From positions 1 to 26,934 of the forward strand of contig NW_021836078.1 in NCBI RefSeq assembly GCF_006345805.1: a stretch of DNA of 26,934 bases, given 5' to 3'. Positions 948 to 26,222 of the stretch are shown piece by piece (position 1 is the stretch's first letter; each line of letters begins with the position of its first letter). Position numbers and translations under genes: made by a program. Below the pieces are notes generated by a model. That model was not told the origin of the DNA. It saw only the letters and a list, made by a program, of their open reading frames with translations, and made no database searches. Origin of the DNA: Octopus sinensis (lineage: Eukaryota).

Positions 948-1047
948 TACACACACACACACACACACACACACCACACACAACCATACATATATACATA
1001 TTACATAAGTATACAACAACCATATATCTATGTATATATGACGTATG

Positions 1048-1080
<33 letters not shown>

Positions 1081-1187
1081 TTATATTTATAATGTATATA
1101 TTATATATATATATAATAGCCTTCGGCTAAAACATTTTTATGATTTTATTTAAGGATTTATATATATATACATATACATACCACACA

Positions 1188-1236
<49 letters not shown>

Positions 1237-1296
1237 CTATATATATATATATATATATATACATATCATATATACATACACATACACACATACATA
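948..1296. repeat. (CA)n/(TA)n microsatellite tract
   Basis: Directly visible. Confidence 0.9.
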
Positions 1297-1298
1297 TA

Positions 1299-3632
1299 CC
1301 GTATATTTCCGCGTATAAGACGACCTTTAAATCCTAAAATTTACCCTAAGAATTTGGGGTCGTCTTAAGCCACCATTCTAAAAATCAAATTTTGTATTTT
1401 AGGTGATTTTATAAGTAAGCTAACCTCGACCTCAGTGCAATAACCATGGACAAACATGAAGAGATTAACAAAATAAAAAAAAAATTATAATATAGGTAAT
1501 AAAAACATTTTTACTTTATATATTATTGGAATATCTTCATAATAAATAGCCTATTCGAGAGATAATTCATCATCATTGAAGTCAACTTTTATCTCTGCAA
1601 GCTCGACTGAGAAAGTGTAAACATCGAGTTATGGTTGCGCTCACAATAAACTTTATCTTTTGTTAACCTTTCAAAAATTTGAACAGTTATGTATAACTGT
1701 AGTAATAACATTTAGAATAACATATTTATATATTTAATAAACTATCTATTATCATTTGGTGGTAAATAACACAATTTGGATTACACACAACCTTTATTTT
1801 TCAATAAAATTATTTTACAGTAGTTGCAGTTAAAACATAAGACATTATAGAATTTTTTAATTTCCTATAAAGATAAATAATATTAATAAAACATCAAATC
1901 TGCCACATGTATTTATCTAAAACCCATCAAATTCCTCACAATCATTACTATCTGTTTCTAAAAGTTTCTCATACATATCACAAGATTCATTACATATGTC
2001 ATCATCGTAAGGATTCCAGTCTGGTTCTGGTGAATCGATTTTGACTTTGTCGTCGATATTGTACAGAATATCATCTTCGGTACCACTCATGACATTAGAG
2101 ATACTGCATTAAAAAAATTATCTTATCGCATTTTCCACTTTAACTTTGCCCTATACCTTTATAACAAAATCACAAAGAATACCAAGTTCCACCATTTGTA
2201 AAAGATTTTTCTCTATTCACCATCCAGTCATTTCATTGCTCTCTCTCGCGTTATCTTTAAATGGCTTGTTTAAACTGACATTAAGTGGCTGCAGTATAGA
2301 AGTCAAACCATCAGAAATAACAGCAATATCAGCATTGGTTTTGGATAACCGGGTTTTAGCATTTGCCGTTAAGTGGCTACAAAACATATCTCAAATCAAT
2401 AAACTGTGTTTGTATGCCACCTGGCTGCATGTTCCAAATACTCTCAATCCATAATTTCACACCACTCTCATCCATCCACCCTTTTTCGTGAAAATGAACA
2501 AAAACGCTAGGAGGAAAATCTATTTTGGACTTTGTTTTACGTTTAAAAATAACTATGGGTTTCAATTTCGTACCGTCAGCCATGCAGTATAATACCACCT
2601 TAAACCTTGTTTCCTCATATCCAGTGCTTTTAACGTGCACTATTTTTACTCCTTTCAAATCTCCTGTTTTGTTACTCAAAATGTCAATGTTTAATGGCGT
2701 TTCATCCATATTTCCAATATGAGACAATGGAAACTGATACCTTTTTCTCAGTTGGATGATGAACTGGTGAAAACTGGTTACTCTGTGATCGAGATCTTTC
2801 GAGAGTTTTTGGGTGATTTTTATTTTCTCCCTAATTACCAGATTTTTTCTGTTCATAAGAAGATTGCATCAACCTACTGTTGCTTTAAAAATTTACTTTC
2901 TTTTCTTTTTGCATGATTTAGCCCATTTTAGGGCATACGATCTTATTTTATTTCGTGTGACAATGTAGCCATCTTGTCTCTGCCGGAGTACTCATTCTGC
3001 TTCATCATTTTCCAACTTCGGCCAACGAGTGCTTCCTCTTCTCATTTCACATTTTTGTTTGTGCATTTGTCTTAATTTTCCTTATTCTTTCTCCACTCTC
3101 GTACCATCTTCTCGGTAACAACGAATGTTCTAACTGCAGCGCGATTGTTCAAGCTCTTGGCTACTGCTATAACTTTCAATTTTCTTCTTTTTGCTGCTGG
3201 TTGCATATTGGTATGGGTATAAAATGATTATAAATTTCACTTGACTAGACAGTTTGTGATTTTATATAAAGTATAGGTAAATGGTTATTAATGTACCAGG
3301 CTGACTGTAACTGTTTAGAAGATTTCAGTTATATGAACCACGATTATCGTATTGTTGTTAGCGGTTGTTATGACAACGATAAAGTTTTGATAAAGAAGGA
3401 GAACCAGGTTCCCTTTCAGGTGACGTGTGTATGAAAAATCATGATGTAGAAACGGATTTATTTTGTTTATTTTAATTTCTAAGGATATAGTAAGTAAAAA
3501 CAAAACAAACAAACATTTGTAATATCATCATCATATGACCAATATTTCTAAAAATATCTGTTGTTGCAAAAGCTAGCCTGTACACAATAGTTTTGTAATT
3601 TTGCAGTCGTCCTATACCGCGAAATATACTAG
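1299..3632 (-). mobile_element. Full-length decayed pogo/TcMar-Tc2 (Passer/POGK-like) DNA transposon
   Basis: TA|CCGTATATTTCCGCGTATAAGACGAC at 1299 and GTCGTCCTATACCGCGAAATATACTAG|TA ending 3632 are imperfect ~26-bp TIRs with TA TSD. A CCGTA start is typical of Tc2/Kanga-type elements. Internal transposase on the minus strand. Confidence 0.9.
1917..3206 (-). pseudogene. Disrupted pogo-family transposase (Brinker-like DBD + CENP-B HTH + DDE_1)
   Basis: Manual translation: MQPAAKRRKLKVIAVAKSLNNRAAVRTFVVTEKMVREWRK...WPKLE...; ORF 2377-2856 has IGNMDETP, KSTGYE, MADGTKLKPIVIFKRK, KGWMD; then I*DMF-(35 aa)-QPLNVSLNKPFK (third Asp replaced by Asn); CSISNVMSGTEDDILY; ends EEFDGF*. Several stops and frameshifts. 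Confidence 0.9.
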
Positions 3633-3646
3633 TATAATTATATCTA

Positions 3647-3776
3647 TATTATATATATATATATATAGATAATATATATATAGGTGTGTGTTGTGGTGTG
3701 TGGTGGGGTGGGGTGTGTGTGTGTGTGGTGTGTGTGTGTGTGTGTGTGTGGTGTGTGTGTGTGCGTGTGTGTGTGT
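3647..3776. repeat. (TA)n/(GT)n microsatellite
   Basis: Directly visible. Confidence 0.9.
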
Positions 3777-4024
3777 AAATAAGTTTTATAATTTCGCTTT
3801 TCCAATTGAAAACGAATAATGTTGACCTCATAAGAGTTTATAAAACTTCAAGAGAACGTCAAGTAATTCTCATTTGGAACAGTGAAACTCGAAGCAGATA
3901 AAGCTATAAATTATAGCGTGTAAATAATGGGCTAAAAAAAAACTTTGGATAGAAAAAGTGGGGTTCGAATCCACATTTTCTGTAAACATGAGCGTAAAAA
4001 TGAATGAAAAAATTAATCAATATA

Positions 4025-4219
4025 CCGTAATTTCCGGCAAAGAAGTCGACGTAGTATATAGGGTAAACATGTAGTACAAACATTGACGCATCATCACTCT
4101 CCTTTCAAATCCTGCTGTATTTCAAGCGGTGTTTTCGGACTTCAAAATCGTTTTGGTGTATAAGTCGACCTACCTTTTTGGGGCTGTAAATTTCGATCTG
4201 AAAAATTCGACTTGTATGG
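4025..4219. mobile_element. Short non-autonomous Tc2/pogo-like MITE
   Basis: TA|CCGTAATTTCCGGC...AAGTCGAC at left; TATAAGTCGACC...AAAAATTCGACTTGTATGG|TA at right (right TIR internally shortened). Same terminal style as the 1299 element. Confidence 0.6.
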
Positions 4220-4828
4220 TATGCTGTTGAGATAATTTATTCGATTGAGGCTACTGATTCATTCCGTCACTACTCCGGTTTCTTAGTTTTTGTGTCACAC
4301 ATTTACTCTGGAGGCAAAGAGATTCTCAAATATACTTTTACCTTGTTAAATTCTTCACCAACCGAAGCTCTGAATAGTTTAGGTTCCTTTTGGTAATCAT
4401 TTCATTACATTTTACATACAATATTGCCAACCCGCTTGGTAAAAGTCATGAATGAACGTCACACAATTTTATTTTATCTTTCTTTGGGTGTTGTGTCGTG
4501 GTTAAGTTAAGCAAGAAACCATTATTTAGCTTCTCTTTCGTTGAATGTCTTGAAAATGTTGGCCTAATTTTTTATTCTCTCTGAAACTGTGCATTCAAAA
4601 AAAAAAAAAAAAAGAAAAGTTAATATTATCAAAAATATTATTTTCATAATTACTATTATCTCAATTTTGAACGAAACAGAAATAATATAACAAGAAGAAA
4701 AAAAAAATGATAACAATATAAAATTGTTGGCCATTTCTTTGAAATACTAAGTTCTGTATTTCCACAAGCAAAAATGTAAGTTTGTGAGAACTCAAGAGGT
4801 TTCCATTGAAATAGAAATTTTGCTATCG

Positions 4829-4829
<1 letters not shown>

Positions 4830-4893
<64 letters not shown>
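4830..4893. repeat. (ATT)n microsatellite
   Basis: Directly visible. Confidence 0.95.
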
Positions 4894-5124
4894 TTCATCA
4901 TCATATTTATATGTTGTTTGTTTAATTTCTTAAGGTTGGAGGCAATTAAAGTTTACATTGAATGAAAGAAAAAAAAAGAAACGTTCCATCTACATTTAGT
5001 CAAAGCATTTTTTTTTTCCTATAAATAAATTTAAAGGTTTATGGCGCTGTTTATTTTGAACTTCTATAGCCGAATTTTTAGTATTTGTCTACGAGCTGTG
5101 CTTTTTCTTCTTTCAGTATTTGTT

Positions 5125-5413
5125 TCACACACACGTACATACACACGCACACACACATGCAAAAGCATTCATTTATGCACGCATACATATATACACACAT
5201 TAAAGCACACGTTTATATGAATTATATAAAAAGAAAAATAGCTTACATATACAGATACATACGTGTGCATATTTATACTTAAAAATTTAAACATTCGCAC
5301 TTGTGTATATGTATGAATGTAATGTATGCATGTATGTATGTATGTGTTGATATATATACATATATGTGTGTGTGTGGTGCATTTATAGCTCTCTCTCTCT
5401 CTCTCTCTCTCTC

Positions 5414-5453
<40 letters not shown>

Positions 5454-5699
5454 TATGTATGCATTTATATATGCATATATATGCATATATATATATATAT
5501 ATATATAATATATATTATATATATATATATATATACCACATATTCACATATGTATGCATTTATATATATATGCATATATATATATACATATATATGCTTA
5601 TATATATGCACATATGTATGCATTTATATATATATATATGCCTTTATATATATGCTTATATATGTGTGTGTGTTTGTGCGTGTGTGAGTGTGTGTGTGT

Positions 5700-5734
<35 letters not shown>

Positions 5735-5830
5735 GTATAAGCACCGAGACATTTATGCGCACGCGTGCGTGTATATATTTTAAGATATTCACAAGAGCAT
5801 ATGCAATAGTACGTGATAGCACGGTACTAC

Positions 5831-5862
<32 letters not shown>
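5125..5862. repeat. Low-complexity (CA)/(TA)/(CT)/(GT) region including repeated CACATATGTATGCATTTATATAT units
   Basis: Unit seen at ~5450, ~5545 and ~5609. Confidence 0.85.
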
Positions 5863-5864
<2 letters not shown>

Positions 5865-6090
5865 AGTGGAAGATAGAATGAGTAACAGAGATAGAGATTG
5901 TTAGAAAGCATATAAAGACACACTTTTGTTCTTCACAAAAGGTGAAGGAATTGTGGTGAAAACTCAGTGAAAATGCAAGATAGATGAGTGGCTTAATGAT
6001 GGCGACACAACTATAGACCGTTGTGGGTTTTGGCAGAGTCATAGTTTTCCTTTTAGGAACGAGAGAAAAACAACAAAATAAAAAAGAAAA

Positions 6091-6135
<45 letters not shown>

Positions 6136-6295
6136 AATAGTAGTAATAGAAGAAGAAAAAGAAGAAGAAAAAGAAGATGAAGAAGAAGAGGAAGAAGAAG
6201 AGGAAGGAGAAGAGGAAGGAGAAGAGGAAGGAGAAGAGGAAGAAGAAGAAGAAGAAGAGGAAGAGGAAGTGGAAGAGGAAGAGGAAGAGGAAGAG

Positions 6296-6334
<39 letters not shown>

Positions 6335-6372
6335 TAATAATAATAATAATGATGATGATAATAATAATAATA

Positions 6373-6412
<40 letters not shown>

Positions 6413-6645
6413 TAAGAAGAAGAAGAAGAAGAAGAAGAAAAGAAGAAGAAGAAGAAGCAGAAGAAAAGAAGAAGAAGAAAGGAAGAAGAAGAGAAGAAGA
6501 AGAAGAAAAGAAGAAGAGAAGAAGAAGAAGAGAAGAAGAAGAAGAAGAAAAAGAAGAAGAAGAAGATAAAAAGAAGAAAAAAAGAAGAAGAAAAGAAGAA
6601 GAAGAAGAAGAAGAAGAAGAAGAAGAAGAAGAAGAAGAAGAAGAT
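6091..6645. repeat. Compound trinucleotide array (AGT)n-(GAA/GAG)n-(AAT)n-(GAA)n
   Basis: Directly visible. Confidence 0.95.
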
Positions 6646-6847
6646 AAATAAATGAATAAACAAAATATCAAAATGTTGCGAATCGGAAAAATACGTCGTT
6701 AAACAGGCGAATTGAATGATATAAAGGAATAGTTGGGCAAAGAGAAATGGTTGAGAAGACAAGAACCAAGACTATCAACAACTGCAAGAAAATTCATCTA
6801 AATAATCAACAACAATGACAGCAGTTGCAGCAATAATGGCAGCAGCA

Positions 6848-7116
6848 CAACAACAACAACAACAACAACAACAGTCATGATGATGATGATGATGATGATG
6901 ATGGTGGTGGTGATGATGATGCTGAATATGATGATGGTGATGATGATGATGAATATGATGATGATGATGAATATGATGATGATGATGAATATGATGATGA
7001 TGATGAAGATGATGATGATGATGCTGCTGCTGCTGATGATGATGATGCTGATGATGCTGATGCTGATGCTGCTGCTGCTGCTGATGATGATGATGATGCT
7101 GATGCTGAATATGATG

Positions 7117-7150
<34 letters not shown>

Positions 7151-7171
7151 GATGATGATGATGATGATGAA

Positions 7172-7214
<43 letters not shown>

Positions 7215-7225
7215 TTGATGATGAA

Positions 7226-7270
<45 letters not shown>
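6848..7270. repeat. Compound trinucleotide array (CAA)n-(GAT)n-(GCT)n-(GAT)n
   Basis: Directly visible. Confidence 0.95.
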
Positions 7271-7387
7271 AAGGACAAAATTATGGTGATGCTGATAATG
7301 ACAAGTGTTATGGCGGTGGTGCAAGTAATCCTCTAATGTCTTCATTTGTTATGGATAGCAAAAGAAAAAAAATAATAAATAAATGAA

Positions 7388-8462: not shown

Positions 8463-9267
8463 AGGCTTGATTGTGTGGTTAAGAAACTCGCTTTACAACA
8501 ACGTGGTTTCAGGTTCAGTGCCACAGCGCGGCAGTTTAGGGAAATGTTTTCTACTATAGCCATGAGCCGATCAATGCCTAGTGAGTGAATTTGGTTGACG
8601 GAAACTGTGTAGAAGGCGACGAGCTGGCAGAAACGTTAGCACACCGGGCGAAATGCGTAGCCGTATTTCGTCTGCCGTTACGTTCTGAGTTTAAATTCCG
8701 CCGAGGTCGACTTTGCCTTTCATCCTTTCGAGGTCGATAAATTAAGTACCAGTTACGCACTGGAGTCAATATAATCGACTTAATCCGTTTGTCTGTCCTT
8801 GTTTGTCCTCTCTGTGTTTAGCCCCTTGTGGGTAGTAAAGAAATAGGTATTTCGTCTGCTGCTACATTCTGAGTTCAAATTCCGCCGAGGTCGACTTTGC
8901 CTTTCATCCTTTCGGGGTCGATTAAAGAAGTACCAGTTACGCACTGGGGTCGATATAATCCACTTAATCCGTTTGTCTGTCCTTGTTTGTTCCCTCTGTG
9001 TATAGCCCCTTGTGGGCAGTTAAGAAATAGGAAACTGTGTAGAAGCCCGTCGTGTTTTCATTTTCGTTCTCCATTTTTCTATCCTAGTGTGTTCTGTCTT
9101 TTAGAAGAGTGTATAGTCGAAACGGAAAAGACGTTTCCTTCTTCCTCACCCCATTCCTTGAGTGTACACTTTTTTCCGTTTTTTTTGCTTAGTTTTGTAT
9201 TTACTCGACTAAAATTCCTCAAGGTGGTGCCCATCATAGCCGCAGTCTAATGACTAAAACAAGTAAT
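8463..9267 (+). mobile_element. Diverged SINE B (CORE-like, tRNA-type head) interrupted by SINE A; tail remnant at 9203-9267
   Basis: Matches the well-preserved copy at 14431-14877 (TGTGTGGTTAAG...GGTTCAGT...CTACTATAGCC...GGAAACTG...GCCCGTCG; tail CTCGACTAAA...GCAGTCTAATGACTAAAACAAGT). Confidence 0.75.
8615..9029 (+). mobile_element. SINE A (tail-1), partially dimeric, with 15-bp TSD
   Basis: Head GGCGACGAGCTGGCAGAAACGTTAGC, body GCCTTTCATCCTTTCG.GGTCGAT.AA...GTACCAG, tail ...CCCTTGTGGG...AAGAAATA. Second body+tail at 8847-9029. TSD GGAAACTGTGTAGAA at 8600-8614 and 9030-9044. Confidence 0.9.
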
Positions 9268-11079: not shown

Positions 11080-11278
11080 TTAGTCGACTCCAGGACTTAT
11101 TCTTTGTAAGCCTAGTACTTATTTCATCGGTTCTTATATCGAACCGCTAGATTACAGGTTACAGGGATGTAAACACATCAACATCGGTTGTCAAGCGATG
11201 GTGGAGGGGGGACACAAACAGACACGAACACACAAATACATGCATACATACATACATGGGTTGGGAAGCAAGCTTCTT

Positions 11279-13295
11279 TATTTCATTAAATTTGCCACAA
11301 GGGCAGCACACATAGAGAAGCTTGAGGGCTAGACAAAGACATTAATGGGATGAATGATGATGATATATGGATGATAAGGATGAGAGAAGACGAAAAGCGC
11401 CCGCCGACTTTCGCTTCTCTAAAACATTGTTCTGTTTTTCTTCTTTTTTTTTTAAACACCATGAGGCAATAAACCTCTTACACAGTTCAAAATTAAAAAT
11501 AAAACACAAACACGAGGCAATAATCCTCTCACTTTTTACATTTTTAGTCTCTTTTTGAGGTAATACACCTCTTCAATTTTTCCGCCCGGCCAGGCTCCTC
11601 GCTTCATCGAAGCACCTGGTCCGTTCCGAACTTAAAGGTTTCAACATAAATCTGAAGGAGTCCTTCGGAAAGGAGTTCGTTATCTTCCACAGATCGTTCT
11701 CCCATATGACCTCCGCAGCCACCTGCGAAGGCCACTCAGGATCCTCCGTGTAGGACAGAAGCCCCTCCCACCGGCACTTCCTTTCAATTTTTTTAATTTC
11801 ATTTTGCAAGGTTCCTCCCTTGTGGAAGAGGACCAAAAATTCCTCCTCCAGCAGCACACCCGCCAAAGGTGAATCGGGACACGCCGGCAGCGTGTCACAA
11901 CCCGCCGGCAATGTCCCGTTTTTCTATTTTCTTTTCTTTTTCCCATGGGCTGCGGGAGGGCGGTGTTCCCTTGCTGTGTCCAGCAGGTCCTCCTTTTCTC
12001 CCGCAGCTCTCGGGTTCTTCGGTGGGCAACCATTGTTGCCCACCTTTCGCTTTCGTTTTTTCGAGGAGGTGGAAACCTCCTCGACATCCTCCTCCTTCTC
12101 TCCCTCCATTGAGGGAGCAGGGAGTGGTTCCTCTGTTAACTGCTCCAGGATCCTATTTTGGTCCTTGGGGCAGTTTTTCTTGATGTGGCCGGTCTCCATT
12201 CACAGGTGACACTTGTGGGGGGGGGCGTCCCTCGAGCATCACCGGATACCTAGACCCGGCCATCCTAAAAAAATCTGGGAAAACCAGACTTTCGGCTGAT
12301 TGGGTCCATAGGGTCAACACAGCTTTTGATCCCTCCCAATCAGCCGCAGGCAAAATTTTTACGTTGAGCAGCTTGGTACTGCTACCACTCAGACCCCGGC
12401 GGATAGAGTCCTCTATCCACTCGGGCTCAATTCCGGGTGGCAAGCCGCAAACCCAAGCCCTCGTAAACTTCTTTCCACAATAACTGGGAAGAAACATTAT
12501 TTCCTTCCCCTCGGGGAAGCTTCTTTGGGGGAGTCAAATAGCAACCAGACCGTTTCAAATTTGACTCCCGTGAAATAAATTTAATAGCTGGCATGTATTC
12601 TGCCAGCTCTTTCAAAATTGTGGCTTTCGGGAAGATGGTTATGATATCGAGCGACTTTGAATAAGTCCTCAACACCACCGTCTTCCTTTCGAGCTCTTTT
12701 AGCCATGATTTGGGAGGTGTTAATTCCCACACTAATATTTCGTTTGCCATTTTTTTTAAAATAAAAAGTTAAAATACAGTTCGTCAATACGTTTTCAAAT
12801 AAAGAAAGGTACACACACACAAAAAAAAAAAGAAAGAAGACACAACAGAAGAGAAGAAAAAATAAAAATAACAGTTCGAATAAAGTTTTTTTTTATTTTA
12901 AATAAATGATAGCTGTGAAAAGAGAGTTCAAATCCAGGCAAAGAAATAAATTTTCGGCCGAAAGGTACTCCTGGCCAATCCTTTTAATCCACGTGGGCAC
13001 AAAAATTTTAAAATACAATTTCTCACAATTATGTGAGACAACACACGTCTCCACCGTAAGGCAGAAAAAAAGCTTCGAATCCAGTAAGGACTCCCTGCCT
13101 GTTCAAAAAAATAAAACCAACAGGCAACAAATCCTACCGGACTCAAAAAGCAAAATGTCTTACCTTACAGTAGAGCGTCTTTCAGTTCAACTTTCGCCAG
13201 CGTGACGACTTCAACAGGTGAGTGAAGAACACTGTTTTTGTTCTTTTTTCTTTTTAGGACGGAGCTCAAGGCTAGACATCTTCTCAGTTCAACCC
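11279..13295 (-). mobile_element. Non-autonomous non-LTR retroelement encoding only ORF1 (L1/Tx1-like, HAL1-type architecture)
   Basis: Perfect 15-bp TSD GGAAGCAAGCTTCTT at 11264-11278 and 13296-13310. ~545-bp 5' region, ORF1, ~295-bp 3' region ending ...CCCTTGTGGCAAATTTAATGAAATA. No RT, endonuclease, LTRs or TIRs. Confidence 0.8.
11573..12750 (-). pseudogene. Disrupted ~390-aa gag-like/ORF1 nucleic-acid-binding protein with CCHC zinc knuckle
   Basis: ORF fragments 12427-12750, 12153-12497, 11924-12199 and 11573-11911 join across frameshifts/stops. ...TRAWVCGLPPGIEPEWI...LEGRPP-KCHL*METGHIKKNCPK is CX2CX4HX4C with the second Cys mutated to TGA, followed by acidic and KKRKRK stretches. Confidence 0.8.
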
Positions 13296-13482
13296 GGAAG
13301 CAAGCTTCTTACCACACAGCCACGCCTGCACTTGCGTATGTATATATATTTTTTCTATCGTGGGTAGAAAGCCAGGTGAGGATGTAAGCAATTGCACCAA
13401 ACTCAATACTTTATTGGTACTTTATTTTATCAATTCCGCAAGGAACAAAAAGGAAGTTGTAAATGTAAACATCTTTTTTACT

Positions 13483-24755: not shown

Positions 24756-25096
24756 CATCTATGCAATGGCACGAGACTTATTATCAAAAAATTGATGCAG
24801 ACAGTGTTAGAGGCAACAATACTGGCTGGGAAAACAAGTGGTGAAGATGTTTTCATTCCAAAGATTCCTCTGATTCCTTCCGACACATAAATTGATTTCA
24901 AAAGGCTACAATGAGCATCAACAAAGCACAGGGTCAGACATTGGAAGTGGTAGGCCTTAATCTTGCAGAACCTGCTTTTTCTCATGGACAGCTCTTTGTC
25001 GGATGCTCTAGAGTTGGAAATCCGGAAAATTTATTCATCTATGCACCCAACGGCAAAACCAAAAATATTGTGTATCATGAAGCCCTGCAAAACTGA
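24756..25096 (+). pseudogene. C-terminal remnant of Helitron RepHel Pif1-like helicase
   Basis: HLCNGTRLIIKKL...GEDVFIPKIPLIPSDT*IDFKRLQ, then a short deletion/frameshift, then MSINKAQGQTLEVVGLNLAEPAFSHGQLFVGCSRV...KTKNIVY (Pif1 motifs V/VI). Confidence 0.92.
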
Positions 25097-25102
25097 AATT
25101 TT

Positions 25103-25378
25103 GGAGCAAAGATGCCTCTCCCCCCGACAACCTCTCTCGCCAACCTTCGACAACCTCTCTCGCCAACCTCCGAAACCTCTCTTGCCAACCTCCGACAATC
25201 TCTCTAGACAACCTCCGACAACTTATCTTGCCAACCTCCGACAACCTTGGAACAAAGATGCCTCTCTCCCCAACAACCTTTCTTGCCAACCTCCGACAAC
25301 CTCTCTCACCAACCTCCGACAACATTTTTCACCAGCCTCCGAACACCTCTCTCGCCAACCTCCAACAATCTCTCCCTC
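25103..25378. repeat. ~22-bp minisatellite (CTCTCGCCAACCTCCGACAAC-like) in the Helitron 3' region
   Basis: About 10 degenerate units, with a higher-order repeat GGA.CAAAGATGCCTCTC at 25103 and 25249. Confidence 0.9.
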
Positions 25379-25540
25379 CTCCAGCTGACAGTTTTTGTAT
25401 TTTTTCGTGACGGAAAATACACTTTTTATGGCAGTTATAACGAAATTGCTTTCTTATATCAGAGTAATAAGGGGCTTCAAAGGAACATTTTTGCCCCTGG
25501 GAATTACCGGGTACACCAGCTAGTATATATATATATATAT

Positions 25541-26222
25541 GCGTTGAATAGTTGAGAACCTTGCTTTCCAGCAATATGGTCTTGGATTCAGTTCCATTGC
25601 GTGGCATCTTGGGCAAGAGTCTTCTGCTGTAGCTCCGGGTCGATTTGGCGGACGGAAACTGAAGCCTGTCGGCGAGCTGGCAGAAACGTTAGCACGAAGA
25701 GCGGAATGCTTAGCGGTATTTCGTCTGCCGTTACGTTCTGAGTTCAAATTCCGCCGAGGTCGATTTTGCCTTTCATCCTTTCGGGGTTGATAAATTAAGT
25801 ACCAGTTACGCACTGGGGTCGATATAATTGACTGACTCCCTTTGTCTGTCCTTGTTTGTCCCCTCTATGTTTAGCCCCTGGTGGGCAATAAAGAAATAGG
25901 AAACTGAAGTCTGTCGTATACATACATACATACATACATACATACTACATACATACATAAACAAGTGCGCGGTGGGTAGGGGTGTGCGCGCACACGCTTC
26001 CAGGTGTGTGTTTTTGTGTTTATCTCTCCCTCACTGCCTGACAACCGGAGGTGGTTTGTTTGCTTTCCTGCAATTCAGCAGTTCTGCAAAAGAGACTGAT
26101 GGAGTAAGTGTCAGACTTAAAGAAAATTACTTAAAGAAAAAGTACGATTTGTTCGACTAGACTTTTCAAGACGATGTCCCAGCATGGTCGCAGTCCAATG
26201 TCTGAAGCAAGTAAAAGATAAA
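25541..26222 (+). mobile_element. Diverged SINE B interrupted by SINE A
   Basis: Core GCATCTTGGGCAAGAGTCTTCT; tail ...CCAGCATGGTCGCAGTCCAATGTCTGAAGCAAGTAAAAGATA. Confidence 0.85.
25671..25898 (+). mobile_element. Well-preserved SINE A (tail-1) with 17-bp TSD
   Basis: TSD GGAAACTGAAGCCTGTC (25654-25670) / GGAAACTGAAGTCTGTC (25899-25915). Confidence 0.92.

What the first reader, a model, noticed from the sequence alone, without database searches (positions are those of the whole stretch)
11279..11345. 3' end of the ORF1 element resembles SINE A tail-1: a shared mobilisation system
Element 3' end CTTTGTCTAGCCCTCAAGCTTCTCTATGTGTGCTGCCCTTGTGGCAAATTTAATGAAATA vs SINE tail CTTTGTCTGTCCTTGTTTGTCCCCTCTATGTTTAGCCCCT(T/G)GTGGGCAATAAAGAAATA: collinear blocks CTTTGTCT, CTCTATGT, CCCTTGTGG and terminal GAAATA. 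Both make 15-17-bp TSDs, lack poly(A), and all three insertions here are sense-oriented inside SINE B. Inference: a LINE, a half-LINE and a SINE share a tail-recognition signal and preferentially colonise another SINE.
Basis: partly seen in the sequence, partly recalled or inferred. Interest (0 to 1): 0.75.

Follow-up and report, generated by a model that had tools for sequence, protein, structure and literature searches.

The report
Shared tail of SINE-targeting retrotransposons
The stretch is the 3' end of a 2-kb retrotransposon that encodes only a gag-like ORF1 protein; its tail belongs to a tail family shared with reverse-transcriptase-encoding L1-like LINEs and an abundant SINE of the same genome, so it is likely copied by such a LINE's enzyme, and like every copy examined it sits at one fixed 15-base site of another SINE.

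Summary
On the minus strand, 11279-11345 is the 3' tail of a 2,017-bp ORF1-only element ("W", 13295..11279) with a 15-bp target duplication and no poly(A). Its tail resembles the SINE A tail (45-46 of 67 bases; 0 of 3000 dinucleotide shuffles reach the score).

The predicted LINE exists. L1-like LINEs of the same genome carry ORF1 with a CCHC knuckle and an ORF2 with APE endonuclease, RT and zf-RVT. They end in the same tail module: a GTCCCC..TCTNTGT block, a covarying 4-bp hairpin, and AAT..GAAATA. LINEs of two other RT families sampled do not.

One young family, "LINE-H" (5.44 kb, 15-bp duplications), inserts at the same position of SINE B as W. It shares 49 of 67 tail bases with SINE A.

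The SINE B "preference" is strict site specificity. W (28 of 28 ends) and a second ORF1-only family X (28 of 28) sit at that site; 29 of 29 LINE-H flanks begin with the site and 26 run on into SINE B. It is weak for SINE A, which prefers AGAA-type sites, mostly in SINE A itself.

Homologous tails, a half-LINE and a LINE are supported. One machinery shared by W and SINE A is not shown. This is a new member of known kinds: target-specific Tx1-like LINEs, SINE/LINE tail sharing and HAL1-like elements.

The parts
11279..13295 (-). Element W: a 2,017-bp ORF1-only non-autonomous non-LTR retrotransposon with no poly(A).
   Evidence: The boundaries are set by the 15-bp duplication. It belongs to a multi-copy family: 1452 first-look candidates, with the top 30 loci 83-100% identical and nearly all about 2.0 kb. 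No ORF2 or RT is present.
11279..11345 (-). The 3' tail, which is the finding's span. It consists of a CTNTGTCT block, a CTCTNTGT block, a hairpin, and AAATTTAATGAAATA.
   Evidence: It matches the tail HMM and the covariance model built from the families.
11293..11305 (-). Predicted 4-bp hairpin, TGCC-CTTGT-GGCA.
   Evidence: On alignment A3 (23 tails), 89.1% of cells pair against 72.5% in shuffles (0 of 500 reach it). Thirteen cells change on both sides against 3.8 expected. Slid controls pair in 11-50% of cells. RNAalifold on A2 predicted no structure.
11264..11278 (-). 3' copy of the target-site duplication, AAGAAGCTTGCTTCC, within SINE B.
   Evidence: The same 15-mer follows 28 of 28 intact 3' ends of family copies.
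13296..13310 (-). 5' copy of the target-site duplication. It is preceded by the SINE B head GCAGGCGTGGCTGTGTGGT.
   Evidence: Six of 6 further copies show the same 5' junction.
11573..12750 (-). ORF1, from the ATG at 12750 to the stop at 11575-11573. In this copy it is broken by frameshifts and by an in-frame TGA.
   Evidence: Three-frame translation. An intact 397-aa version is present in copy L008. It is homologous to the ORF1 of autonomous LINEs.
12170..12211 (-). CCHC zinc knuckle, C-x2-C-x4-H-x4-C. The second Cys codon reads TGA at 12200-12202 in this copy.
   Evidence: Other copies are intact, for example KCHLCLETGHIKKNC. The Pfam match on W is only weak (E 0.74). zf-CCHC is significant in LINE ORF1s.
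8616..9029 (+). SINE A: a full unit at 8616-8845 plus a partial second unit at 8846-9029, flanked by the 16-bp duplication GGAAACTGTGTAGAAG, inside SINE B.
   Evidence: The same GGTATTTCG self-insertion is seen in other loci.
25672..25898 (+). SINE A copy flanked by an 18-bp duplication (one mismatch), at the same GGAAACTG position of another SINE B.

Best explanation
Window 11279-11345 (minus strand) is the 3' tail of a 2,017-bp ORF1-only, non-autonomous relative of a group of L1/Tx1-like LINEs, and it is likely reverse-transcribed in trans by the ORF2 protein of a LINE of that lineage, which would recognise the tail and nick one 15-bp site in SINE B.

Shown:
- The element encodes only an ORF1 with a CCHC knuckle.
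- Autonomous LINEs of the same genome carry a homologous ORF1 plus an ORF2 with APE endonuclease, RT and zf-RVT.
- These LINEs, at least ten ORF1-only families and SINE A all end in one homologous tail module. It has a GTCCCC..TCTNTGT block, a 4-bp hairpin with compensatory changes, and then AAT..(G)AAATA, without poly(A).
- Family copies were sampled without regard to their flanks. W (28 of 28 intact ends) and X (28 of 28) sit at the same position of SINE B; all 29 LINE-H flanks begin with the site and 26 run on into SINE B there. W copies and full-length LINE-H copies show 15-bp duplications.
- One element at that site (L171) still keeps the first ~158 codons of an ORF2 endonuclease. It is therefore a deletion derivative.

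Inferred:
- Target-primed reverse transcription starts at the tail, as in 'stringent' LINE/SINE pairs.
- The hairpin is the recognition signal.
- The drivers of W were older LINEs of the LINE-H lineage whose site was AAGAAGCTTGCTTCC. Present LINE-H uses AAGTAGCTTGCT(A/T)AC.
- SINE A took its tail from the same LINE group but is served by a less site-specific member.
For: Element anatomy and family.

Site specificity:
- W: 28 of 28 intact 3' ends and 6 of 6 5' junctions.
- X: 28 of 28.
- Further families at the same junction: 24, 45 and 18 pattern hits, with 0 in the reversed-pattern controls.

Independent insertions:
- W: tail 94.7%, duplication 90.9%, SINE B flank 67.7% and far flank 48.2% mean pairwise identity.
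- LINE-H: 99.3, 88.9, 82.5 and 48.9%.

LINEs carrying the tail:
- The PF03372 search in the own genome gave 8622 candidates.
- At least 31 of 40 fetched LINE loci have a same-strand covariance-model match about 250-350 nt after the ORF2 stop. The only hits in 29 loci of other RT families were three matches in two loci, and these are SINE A copies.

Domains: Exo_endo_phos, RVT_1 and zf-RVT. The best solved relative is human LINE-1 ORF2p, E 3.5e-68 over residues 3-868. R2 matches at 2.7e-25 over the RT only.

ORF1 homology: E 1e-26 to 1e-52. LINE-H ORF1 is 56% identical to the L171 family, 36% to X and 28% to W.

LINE-H:
- L349 spans 958-6396, with identical duplications at 943-957 and 6397-6411.
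- The 5' flank is the SINE B head.
- Duplications lie 5417-5440 bp apart in 4 copies.
- 29 of 29 flanks start AAGTAG and 26 of 29 run on into SINE B.

Other points:
- ORF2 remnant in L171.
- Hairpin covariation.
- Tail similarity statistics.
- Literature (passages read): Tx1-clade LINEs are target-specific for (TC)n, (TTC)n, U2 snRNA and DNA transposons, and SINEs share tails with partner LINEs (PMC4494074). HAL1 is an ORF1p-only L1 derivative that arose several times (PMC5753468). L1-Tx1 is listed among recently active LINEs of Octopus vulgaris (PMC13282606).
Against: - No experiment or RNA data shows trans-mobilisation.
- All 29 sampled LINE-H copies sit in AAGTAG..(A/T)AC sites, while W copies sit in AAGAAG..TCC sites. 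The LINE-H tail shares only 42 of 67 bases with W. The LINE found is therefore probably not W's own driver, and an autonomous LINE at the AAGAAG variant was not found.
- The hairpin has only 4 bp, and RNAalifold predicted no consensus structure on A2. Related sequences can beat shuffles without any structure.
- Pfam found no RRM, and only a weak knuckle match, in W ORF1.
- The RT was not placed in a phylogeny, so 'Tx1' rests on domain content, the PDB match, target specificity and a published repeat table.
- X ORF1 is nearer to the ORF1s of microsatellite-specific LINEs (41%) than to W (20-22%). The ORF1-only families therefore did not simply radiate from one ancestor.
Confidence: 0.78

Rival explanations
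1. The tails share descent but not machinery. They are homologous only because every element descends from one LINE group. W was served by a SINE-B-specific LINE. SINE A is served by a different, weakly specific member, such as LINE D, D2 or C, which end in GG(A/G)TAATAA(AGAAATA/TAAAAC).
For: - SINE A junctions (100 rows, hand count): about 49 AGAA-type, about 22 within SINE A, about 15 TATA-type and 2 at the W site.
- LINE D flanks are varied and are not SINE B.
- The LINE D2 tail ends in GGGTAATAAAGAAATA, identical to one SINE A subfamily.
- SINE A tail identity is 62-70% to LINE B/B2, C, D/D2/D3 and E (56% to A, 53% to F), against 50-52% to W.
- The first bases of the SINE A duplications go with the tail subfamily: GGTA, AGAA or TATA.
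Against: - SINE A shares a nearly perfect 26-nt block with the SINE-B-specific LINE-H (49 of 67 bases overall).
- 18 of 40 sampled non-canonical junctions at the W site are SINE A tails. The site is therefore used by SINE A, though at a share explained by an AGAA preference.
- The true partner of SINE A was not identified.
Confidence: 0.5
2. Targeting is guided by RNA. The endonuclease is only loosely specific (AGAA-like). The fixed site of the ORF1-only elements would come from read-through transcripts that carry the downstream SINE B 15-mer and anneal to the nicked target, as proposed for R1 and R2.
For: - In W, X, Y and Z the hexamer AATAAA is completed only by the first A's of the target (GAAATA|AAG, GAATAA|AAG). 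In the LINEs and SINE A it lies 3-7 nt before the element end (read). Polyadenylation would therefore fall in the flank.
- PMC4494074 (passage) notes that co-transcription with the target can strengthen target-specific integration.
- SINE A subfamily-specific duplication starts.
Against: - No transcript ends were seen: no RNA holder was listed, and the contigs gave no verdict.
- The 5' and 3' duplications of LINE-H are identical and match a SINE B subfamily present uninterrupted elsewhere. The site sequence therefore comes from the target.
- Endonuclease-determined specificity is the established view for Tx1-type LINEs (PMC4494074).
Confidence: 0.2
3. The constant SINE B flanks are part of a composite unit (SINE B head, insert, SINE B body) that spread by segmental duplication, gene conversion, or retrotransposition of the whole composite. 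On this view there is no site-specific insertion.
For: Every copy has the same flanks, and the 15-mer is well conserved: 90.9% in W and 88.9% in LINE-H.
Against: - Flank identity is far below element identity: 67.7 against 94.7% for W, and 82.5 against 99.3% for LINE-H.
- Flank identity falls to the level of unrelated DNA (48-49%) 600 nt away.
- At least ten unrelated-length families and a 5.4-kb LINE share the junction.
- Tandem head-to-tail arrays are separated by one 15-mer.
Confidence: 0.03
4. The resemblance between the W tail and the SINE A tail arises by chance between two T/C-rich sequences.
For: Identity over the last 46 nt is only 50-52%, and two of the matching letters are private to the window copy.
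Against: - 0 of 3000 dinucleotide shuffles reach the score.
- Both tails are hit by one HMM and one covariance model, which also finds LINE 3' ends at the expected place.
- Intermediate tails connect them.
Confidence: 0.02

Closest known systems
Target-specific Tx1-clade LINEs of the L1 group: Tx1 in Tx1D, Keno in U2 snRNA genes, Kibi in (TC)n, Koshi in (TTC)n, Tx1-9_AMi in Harbinger transposons (PMC4494074, passages read)
   Same: - ORF1 plus an ORF2 with APE endonuclease and RT.
- Family-specific insertion sites. The LINE families here end at (TTA)n, (TCTA)n, (CT)n and (ATCT)n repeats, or at one site in a repeat element (SINE B).
- Tandem head-to-tail arrays.
   Different: - The target here is a fixed 15-bp site inside an abundant SINE.
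- The tails lack poly(A) and carry a conserved hairpin module.
- Clade membership was not tested by RT phylogeny.
- This is a mollusc-like host genome.
SINE/LINE partnership through a common 3' tail ('stringent' type; Kajikawa and Okada 2002 as cited in PMC4494074; Ohshima and Okada 2005 seen only in reference lists)
   Same: A SINE (SINE A) and non-autonomous elements carry the 3' tail of autonomous LINEs. There is no poly(A), and a small stem-loop lies before a short A/T-rich end.
   Different: - Mobilisation was not tested.
- The exact partner of SINE A is unresolved.
- The tail is shared across a whole group of LINE families with different targets.
HAL1 (half-L1) of mammals: an ORF1p-only derivative of L1 that arose several times (PMC5753468, passage read)
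   Same: - Encodes ORF1 only and keeps the LINE ends.
- Multi-copy.
- Probably arose more than once. The ORF1s of W and X are each nearer to different autonomous LINEs, and L171 keeps an ORF2 remnant.
   Different: - Strictly site-specific, with no poly(A).
- At least ten diverged families at one target.
- ORF1 carries a CCHC knuckle.
R1/R2-type rDNA-specific LINEs (recalled; mentioned in PMC4494074)
   Same: A fixed target site, a defined duplication length, and a possible role for co-transcribed flank sequence.
   Different: R2 uses a restriction-like endonuclease. Here ORF2 matches L1 ORF2p far better than R2. The target is a SINE, not rDNA.

Membership tests
L1 group / Tx1-like LINE (for the LINEs that carry the tail) | ORF2 with an N-terminal APE-type endonuclease followed by RT | tested here: met
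   Exo_endo_phos plus RVT_1 (plus zf-RVT) in the ORF2 of L206, L214, L205, L213, L344 and L349. The best PDB relative is human LINE-1 ORF2p, E 3.5e-68.
L1 group / Tx1-like LINE | RT falls inside the Tx1 clade in a phylogeny with reference elements | not tested
   No reference LINE sequences were at hand. The only support is that L1-Tx1 is the one L1-type entry in a published Octopus vulgaris repeat table (PMC13282606).
L1 group / Tx1-like LINE | Sequence-specific insertion | tested here: met
   LINE-H: 29 of 29 flanks start AAGTAG and 26 of 29 lie in SINE B. Other families end at (TTA)n, (TCTA)n, (CT)n and (ATCT)n. LINE D shows no clear target.
L1 group / Tx1-like LINE (the window's element itself) | Encodes its own RT | tested here: not met
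   There is no ORF2 in the 2,017-bp element or in about 30 family copies. It is a non-autonomous relative, not a LINE.
HAL1-like ORF1-only derivative | ORF1 homologous to the ORF1 of autonomous LINEs; ORF2 lost; LINE ends kept | tested here: met
   ORF1 blastp E 1e-26 to L205 ORF1. The tail matches the covariance model. An ORF2 remnant is present in the related element L171. The direct parent of W was not found.
Type I ORF1p (RRM plus CCHC; recalled classification) | RRM fold followed by a CCHC knuckle | tested here: inconclusive
   The CCHC is present. Pfam found no RRM, and no structure was predicted.
Stringent SINE/LINE tail partnership | Homologous 3' tail in the SINE and in an RT-encoding LINE of the same genome | tested here: met
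   SINE A against LINE-H: 49 of 67 bases, with 0 of 2000 shuffles reaching the score. Identity to LINE B/B2, C, D/D2/D3 and E tails is 62-70%.
Stringent SINE/LINE tail partnership | The LINE enzyme mobilises the SINE through that tail | not testable with these tools
   This needs a retrotransposition assay.
tRNA-derived SINE (SINE A, SINE B) | Head recognisable as a tRNA | tested here: not met
   ARAGORN found 0 genes and Rfam gave 0 matches at gathering score in the window. The A- and B-box likeness was judged by eye only. The octopus tRNA-derived SINE paper (Ohshima and Okada 1994) was seen only in a reference list.

The most novel reading that the evidence does not exclude
A lineage of L1/Tx1-like LINEs has specialised on one 15-bp site of an abundant SINE and tracks that SINE's subfamilies (AAGAAG..TCC, then AAGTAG..AAC). 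It has spawned a radiation of at least ten ORF1-only parasites confined to the same site. Their site fidelity is partly RNA-templated: the AAUAAA signal is completed by the target, so transcripts carry the target 15-mer, which anneals to the next SINE B copy.
Probability: 0.2. Interest if true: 0.65.

Novelty: new member of a known kind. Interest (0 to 1): 0.5.

Why it matters
The result ties three large repeat classes of a cephalopod-type genome into one system. These are an abundant SINE, a set of ORF1-only elements, and a group of young, nearly identical L1-like LINEs.

It also shows that much of the 'SINE in SINE' nesting is due to sequence-specific integration rather than chance.

Practical uses:
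- A defined tail module with a covarying hairpin, which can be tested as the RT recognition signal.
- A natural series of target variants for studying how an APE endonuclease reads 15 bp.
- A marker system of fixed-site insertions for octopus population and lineage studies.
- Better repeat libraries: many 'unclassified' entries may be these ORF1-only families.

Tried and rejected
- Pfam on W ORF1 gave only a weak knuckle match (E 0.74).
- The search for homologous proteins, longer lengths: none at E <= 0.001.
- Earlier findings of the scan: nothing in 3 look-ups.
- PF00078 search. The top 30 loci are five clusters. The main one ends in (TTCCTA)n and another sampled family in (ATT)n. Neither carries the tail. 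The nhmmer hits there were SINE A copies.
- RTE-2_OV of the literature has a microsatellite 3' UTR (PMC9115989, passages). It was not pursued.
- The L201/L103 lead, a LINE whose 3' region once abuts the site, was rejected. It has an (AAT)n tail with no hairpin module, and its own flank is not the site.
- The exact 5' junction pattern of the window copy found only the window itself.
- The pattern at the W ORF1 stop gave 15 hits, all followed by the W 3' UTR, with no longer variant.
- Of 40 sampled junctions with other end bases at the site, 18 were SINE A tails. Most of the rest were mutated or truncated SINE B, and a few were unidentified. None was a LINE.
- RNAalifold on A2 predicted no structure.
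- ARAGORN and Rfam found nothing in the window.
- Sequencing runs: no RNA holder was listed. Contigs of four runs laid on the element gave short pieces only and no verdict on transcript ends.
- Literature searches (listings plus the passages named) found no description of this tail family, of a SINE-targeting LINE, or of ORF1-only elements in octopus. Supplements were not read.
Full report
**What is at the coordinates**

Read on the minus strand, 11279-11345 is the last 67 nt of an element that runs from 13295 to 11279, a length of 2,017 bp. It is flanked by a perfect 15-bp duplication, AAGAAGCTTGCTTCC, at 13296-13310 and 11264-11278, and it has no poly(A).

It has a ~545-nt leader and one ORF1 (ATG at 12750, stop at 11575-11573). 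In this copy the ORF is broken by frameshifts and by a TGA inside a C-x2-C-x4-H-x4-C knuckle. A ~290-nt 3' UTR follows.

It is one copy of a multi-copy family, which I call W. There are 1452 first-look candidates. The 30 best loci are 83-100% identical and nearly all about 2.0 kb. One copy, L008, keeps an open 397-codon ORF. No copy has an ORF2.

**The observation**

The three SINE A tails in the window are at 8787-8845, 8971-9029 and 25840-25898. A global alignment of the 67-nt span with each gives 45-46 identities, and none of 3000 dinucleotide-preserving shuffles reaches the score (local scores).

The duplications are 15, 16 and 18 bp.

**The flanks: site specificity, not mere preference**

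I sampled family copies by their 3' UTR, without regard to flanks.
- Of 30 W loci, 28 have an intact 3' end. All 28 are followed by the same 15-mer and then the rest of SINE B, at the same SINE B position.
- Six of 6 copies fetched with longer 5' flanks have the SINE B head and the 15-mer at the 5' junction.

The copies are independent insertions. Mean pairwise identity is 94.7% in the last 120 nt of the element and 90.9% in the 15-mer. It is only 67.7% in the next 120 nt of SINE B, and 48.2% (unrelated) 600 nt away. This rules out a duplicated or co-amplified composite.

**More families at the same junction**

Pattern searches for 'other tail end plus the 15-mer' gave 24, 45 and 18 hits, with 0 in the reversed-pattern controls.
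- They revealed further families, here called X, X2, Y, Y2, Y3, Z, Z2, U and V. Their tails are related but distinct, and each has an ORF1-like frame within 1.5 kb and no ORF2.
- Some sit head-to-tail, separated by one 15-mer.
- A 5'-junction pattern gave still more 5' end classes, again ORF1-only.
- X, sampled without regard to flanks, is at the site in 28 of 28 intact ends.
- W and X ORF1s align over an RRM-sized region plus the knuckle at about 20% identity.

**SINE A behaves differently**

Among the 30 copies most similar to the window's, only one other lies at the GGAAACTG position of SINE B used twice in the window. Duplications run 7-23 bp. Their first bases go with the tail subfamily..GGGTAATAAAGAAATA with GGTA..GGGCAAT.. 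with AGAA or GGAA, and ..GGGCAGT.. with TATA.

A sample of 100 junctions in genome order, from 11,986 pattern matches (counted by hand), gives:
- about 49 flanks starting AGAA;
- about 22 of all flanks inside SINE A itself, at AGAAACGTTAGC;
- about 15 TATA-type;
- 3-4 at the SINE B GGAAACTGAAAG site;
- 2 at the W site.

SINE A does use the W site in absolute numbers. Of 40 fetched junctions from 377 with other end bases, 18 are SINE A tails. That share is about what an AGAA preference and the abundance of SINE B would give; this is my rough estimate, not a computation.

**Finding the LINE**

The best RVT_1 hits (59,986 candidates) belong to other LINE families, whose ends are (TTCCTA)n or (ATT)n. 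The only tail-HMM hits in them were neighbouring SINE A copies.

A search with the L1-type endonuclease family PF03372 (8622 candidates) was productive.
- I fetched 40 loci.
- At least 31 have a same-strand tail match about 250-350 nt after the ORF2 stop. The only hits in 29 loci of the other RT families were three matches in two loci, and these are SINE A copies (positions mapped by hand).
- These LINEs have an ORF1 of about 340-630 codons with a CCHC knuckle.
- Their ORF2 has about 1030-1150 codons, with Exo_endo_phos, RVT_1 and zf-RVT.
- Their best solved relative is human LINE-1 ORF2p (E 3.5e-68 over residues 3-868). R2 proteins match only over the RT (2.7e-25).
- Their ORF1s are homologous to W ORF1 (up to 1e-26, 29% identity, best with 'LINE D') and to X ORF1 (up to 1e-52, 41-42%, best with 'LINE E' and 'LINE C').

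Each family ends at its own kind of sequence:

| LINE family | What follows the tail |
|---|---|
| A | (TTA)n |
| B | (TCTA)n |
| E | (CT)n |
| F | (ATCT)n |
| C | AGAT... |
| D | no clear target |

This is the behaviour described for the Tx1 clade (PMC4494074, passages). L1-Tx1 is the L1-type entry among recently active LINEs of Octopus vulgaris (PMC13282606, Table 1 passage). I did not run an RT phylogeny.

**The LINE at the SINE B site**

I ran a tblastn of 20 ORF2s against 182 junction loci. It gave two leads.

*L171* is a 2,822-bp element at the site, with a tail followed by the 15-mer. It has ORF1 plus the first ~158 codons of an endonuclease. It is therefore a deletion derivative caught half-way.

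*L180* has ORF2 sequence directly after the 15-mer. A DNA search with that fragment found an abundant family, 'LINE-H', with 2704 candidates.
- Of twelve fetched copies, ten matched the LINE-H 3' UTR at their 3' ends. One more (L341) carries a related W/X-like tail followed by the site, and one gave no tail match at the expected place.
- In L349 the element spans 958-6396, a length of 5,439 bp. It has identical duplications, AAGTAGCTTGCTAAC, at 943-957 and 6397-6411. The SINE B head GGCGCAGGAGTGGCTGTGTGGT lies just before the 5' copy.
- Four copies have duplications 5417-5440 bp apart.
- ORF1 has 402 codons with zf-CCHC. ORF2 has Exo_endo_phos, RVT_1 and zf-RVT, with one or more frameshifts in the four copies listed.
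- Sampled by its 3' UTR (648 candidates, top 40 at 98-100% identity, so a very young family), 29 of 29 flanks begin AAGTAG.
- Of these, 26 continue as SINE B at the same position. One is a tandem array and two are odd.
- Pairwise identity is 99.3% for the element tail, 82.5% for the SINE B flank and 48.9% for the far flank.
- The LINE-H tail shares 49 of 67 bases with SINE A, including a nearly perfect 26-nt block, and 42 of 67 with W. In each case 0 of 2000 shuffles reach the score.

**The tail module**

Across 23 tails (ORF1-only families, SINE A and LINEs A-F; alignment A3) the common plan has three parts:
- a (T)GTCCCC..TCTNTGT block;
- a 4-bp stem with a 4-6-nt loop;
- AAT and a short A/T-rich stretch ending in (G)AAATA or a variant.

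On the plain MAFFT alignment, 89.1% of stem cells pair, against 72.5% in shuffles (0 of 500 reach it). Thirteen cells change on both sides, against 3.8 expected. The outer pair occurs as G-C, G-U, U-A, A-U and C-G. Sliding one arm drops pairing to 11-50%.

The caveats are that the stem is short, the sequences are related, and RNAalifold on A2 found nothing.

**Mechanism (inferred)**

By analogy with stringent LINE/SINE pairs and with target-specific Tx1, R1 and R2 elements:
1. The ORF2 protein of a LINE of this lineage would nick the bottom strand at the left edge of the 15-mer.
2. It would bind the tail of an RNA that carries the module.
3. It would start reverse transcription at ..GAAATA.
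4. A top-strand nick 15 bp away gives the duplication.

W supplies its own ORF1p but needs ORF2p in trans.

W sites read AAGAAG..TCC and LINE-H sites read AAGTAG..(A/T)AC, so today's LINE-H is probably not W's driver. An older relative is more likely, and I did not find one.

SINE A carries the same module but has a broad AGAA-type target spectrum. Either it is served by another member of the group (LINE D2 ends in the very same 16 bases as one SINE A subfamily), or target choice has an RNA-templated component.

One direct reading bears on the latter possibility. In the ORF1-only families the hexamer AATAAA is completed only by the first A's of the target. In the LINEs and SINE A it lies a few bases before the end. 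Transcripts would therefore be expected to run into the flank. I could not test this: no RNA holder was listed, and the contigs gave no verdict.

**Comparison and novelty**

Every ingredient is known:
- target-specific Tx1-type LINEs, including ones that target other transposons (PMC4494074);
- SINEs that borrow LINE tails;
- ORF1-only 'half-L1' elements that arose repeatedly (PMC5753468).

What appears not to be in print is the rest of the picture. This includes a LINE lineage aimed at one site of a SINE, and the many ORF1-only families confined to that site. It also includes the common hairpin-bearing tail that links them to microsatellite-specific LINEs and to the abundant SINE A. This statement rests on four full-text searches and the passages read; supplements were not read.

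I rate it a new member of known kinds, of moderate interest.

Noticed in passing
L039-L068; own-genome junction list: The first bases of SINE A target duplications go with the tail subfamily: GGGTAAT with GGTA, GGGCAAT with AGAA or GGAA, and GGGCAGT with TATA or TATG. This suggests different LINE partners or RNA-templated target choice.
   Followed up: partly
window 8846-9029; L046, L047, L050, L054, L055, L061: SINE A often inserts into SINE A itself. One site is GGTATTTCG, which gives tandem partial dimers as in the window. The other is AGAAACGTTAGC near the 5' end, which accounts for about 22 of 100 junctions.
   Followed up: partly
window 12212-12225 (minus strand); L005, L007, L009, L010, L015, L016, L028: Many W copies are frameshifted at the same poly-C run just before the CCHC knuckle. 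This may be a mutation or assembly hot spot, or a programmed shift.
   Followed up: no
W, X, Y and Z 3' junctions; LINE tails: The hexamer AATAAA is completed by the first A's of the target in the ORF1-only families. In the autonomous LINEs and SINE A it lies 3-7 nt before the element end.
   Followed up: no
L342-L382 against L001-L030: The young LINE-H sits only in a SINE B variant of the site (AAGTAGCTTGCT(A/T)AC). The older W copies sit in AAGAAGCTTGCTTCC. The LINE lineage may be tracking SINE B subfamilies.
   Followed up: partly
L202-L220, L267-L276: Related LINE families end at (TTA)n, (TCTA)n, (CT)n or (ATCT)n microsatellites. Several form head-to-tail arrays (L206, L208, L210, L214).
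   Followed up: partly
L171:19-2840: An element at the SINE B site has ORF1, a remnant of the first ~158 ORF2 codons, and an inverted ORF1-like piece at 2166-2408 on the other strand. It is a rearranged deletion derivative.
   Followed up: partly
window 2377-2868 (minus strand): A 163-codon open frame that, by eye, looks like the DDE domain of a pogo/Tigger-type transposase. It was not searched.
   Followed up: no
window 5100-7350: More than 2 kb of microsatellite and purine-rich low-complexity sequence, with a GC skew of 0.65 at 6001-7000.
   Followed up: no
window 24954-25388 (plus strand): An open frame with a repeated ..NLSRQPP..T.. unit, which points to a tandem repeat in the DNA just upstream of the SINE B and SINE A pair.
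   Followed up: no
L123-L152; L181-L198: Two other very young RT families are present. One ends in (TTCCTA)n; 24 of the 30 best RVT_1 loci belong to it. The other ends in (ATT)n.
   Followed up: partly
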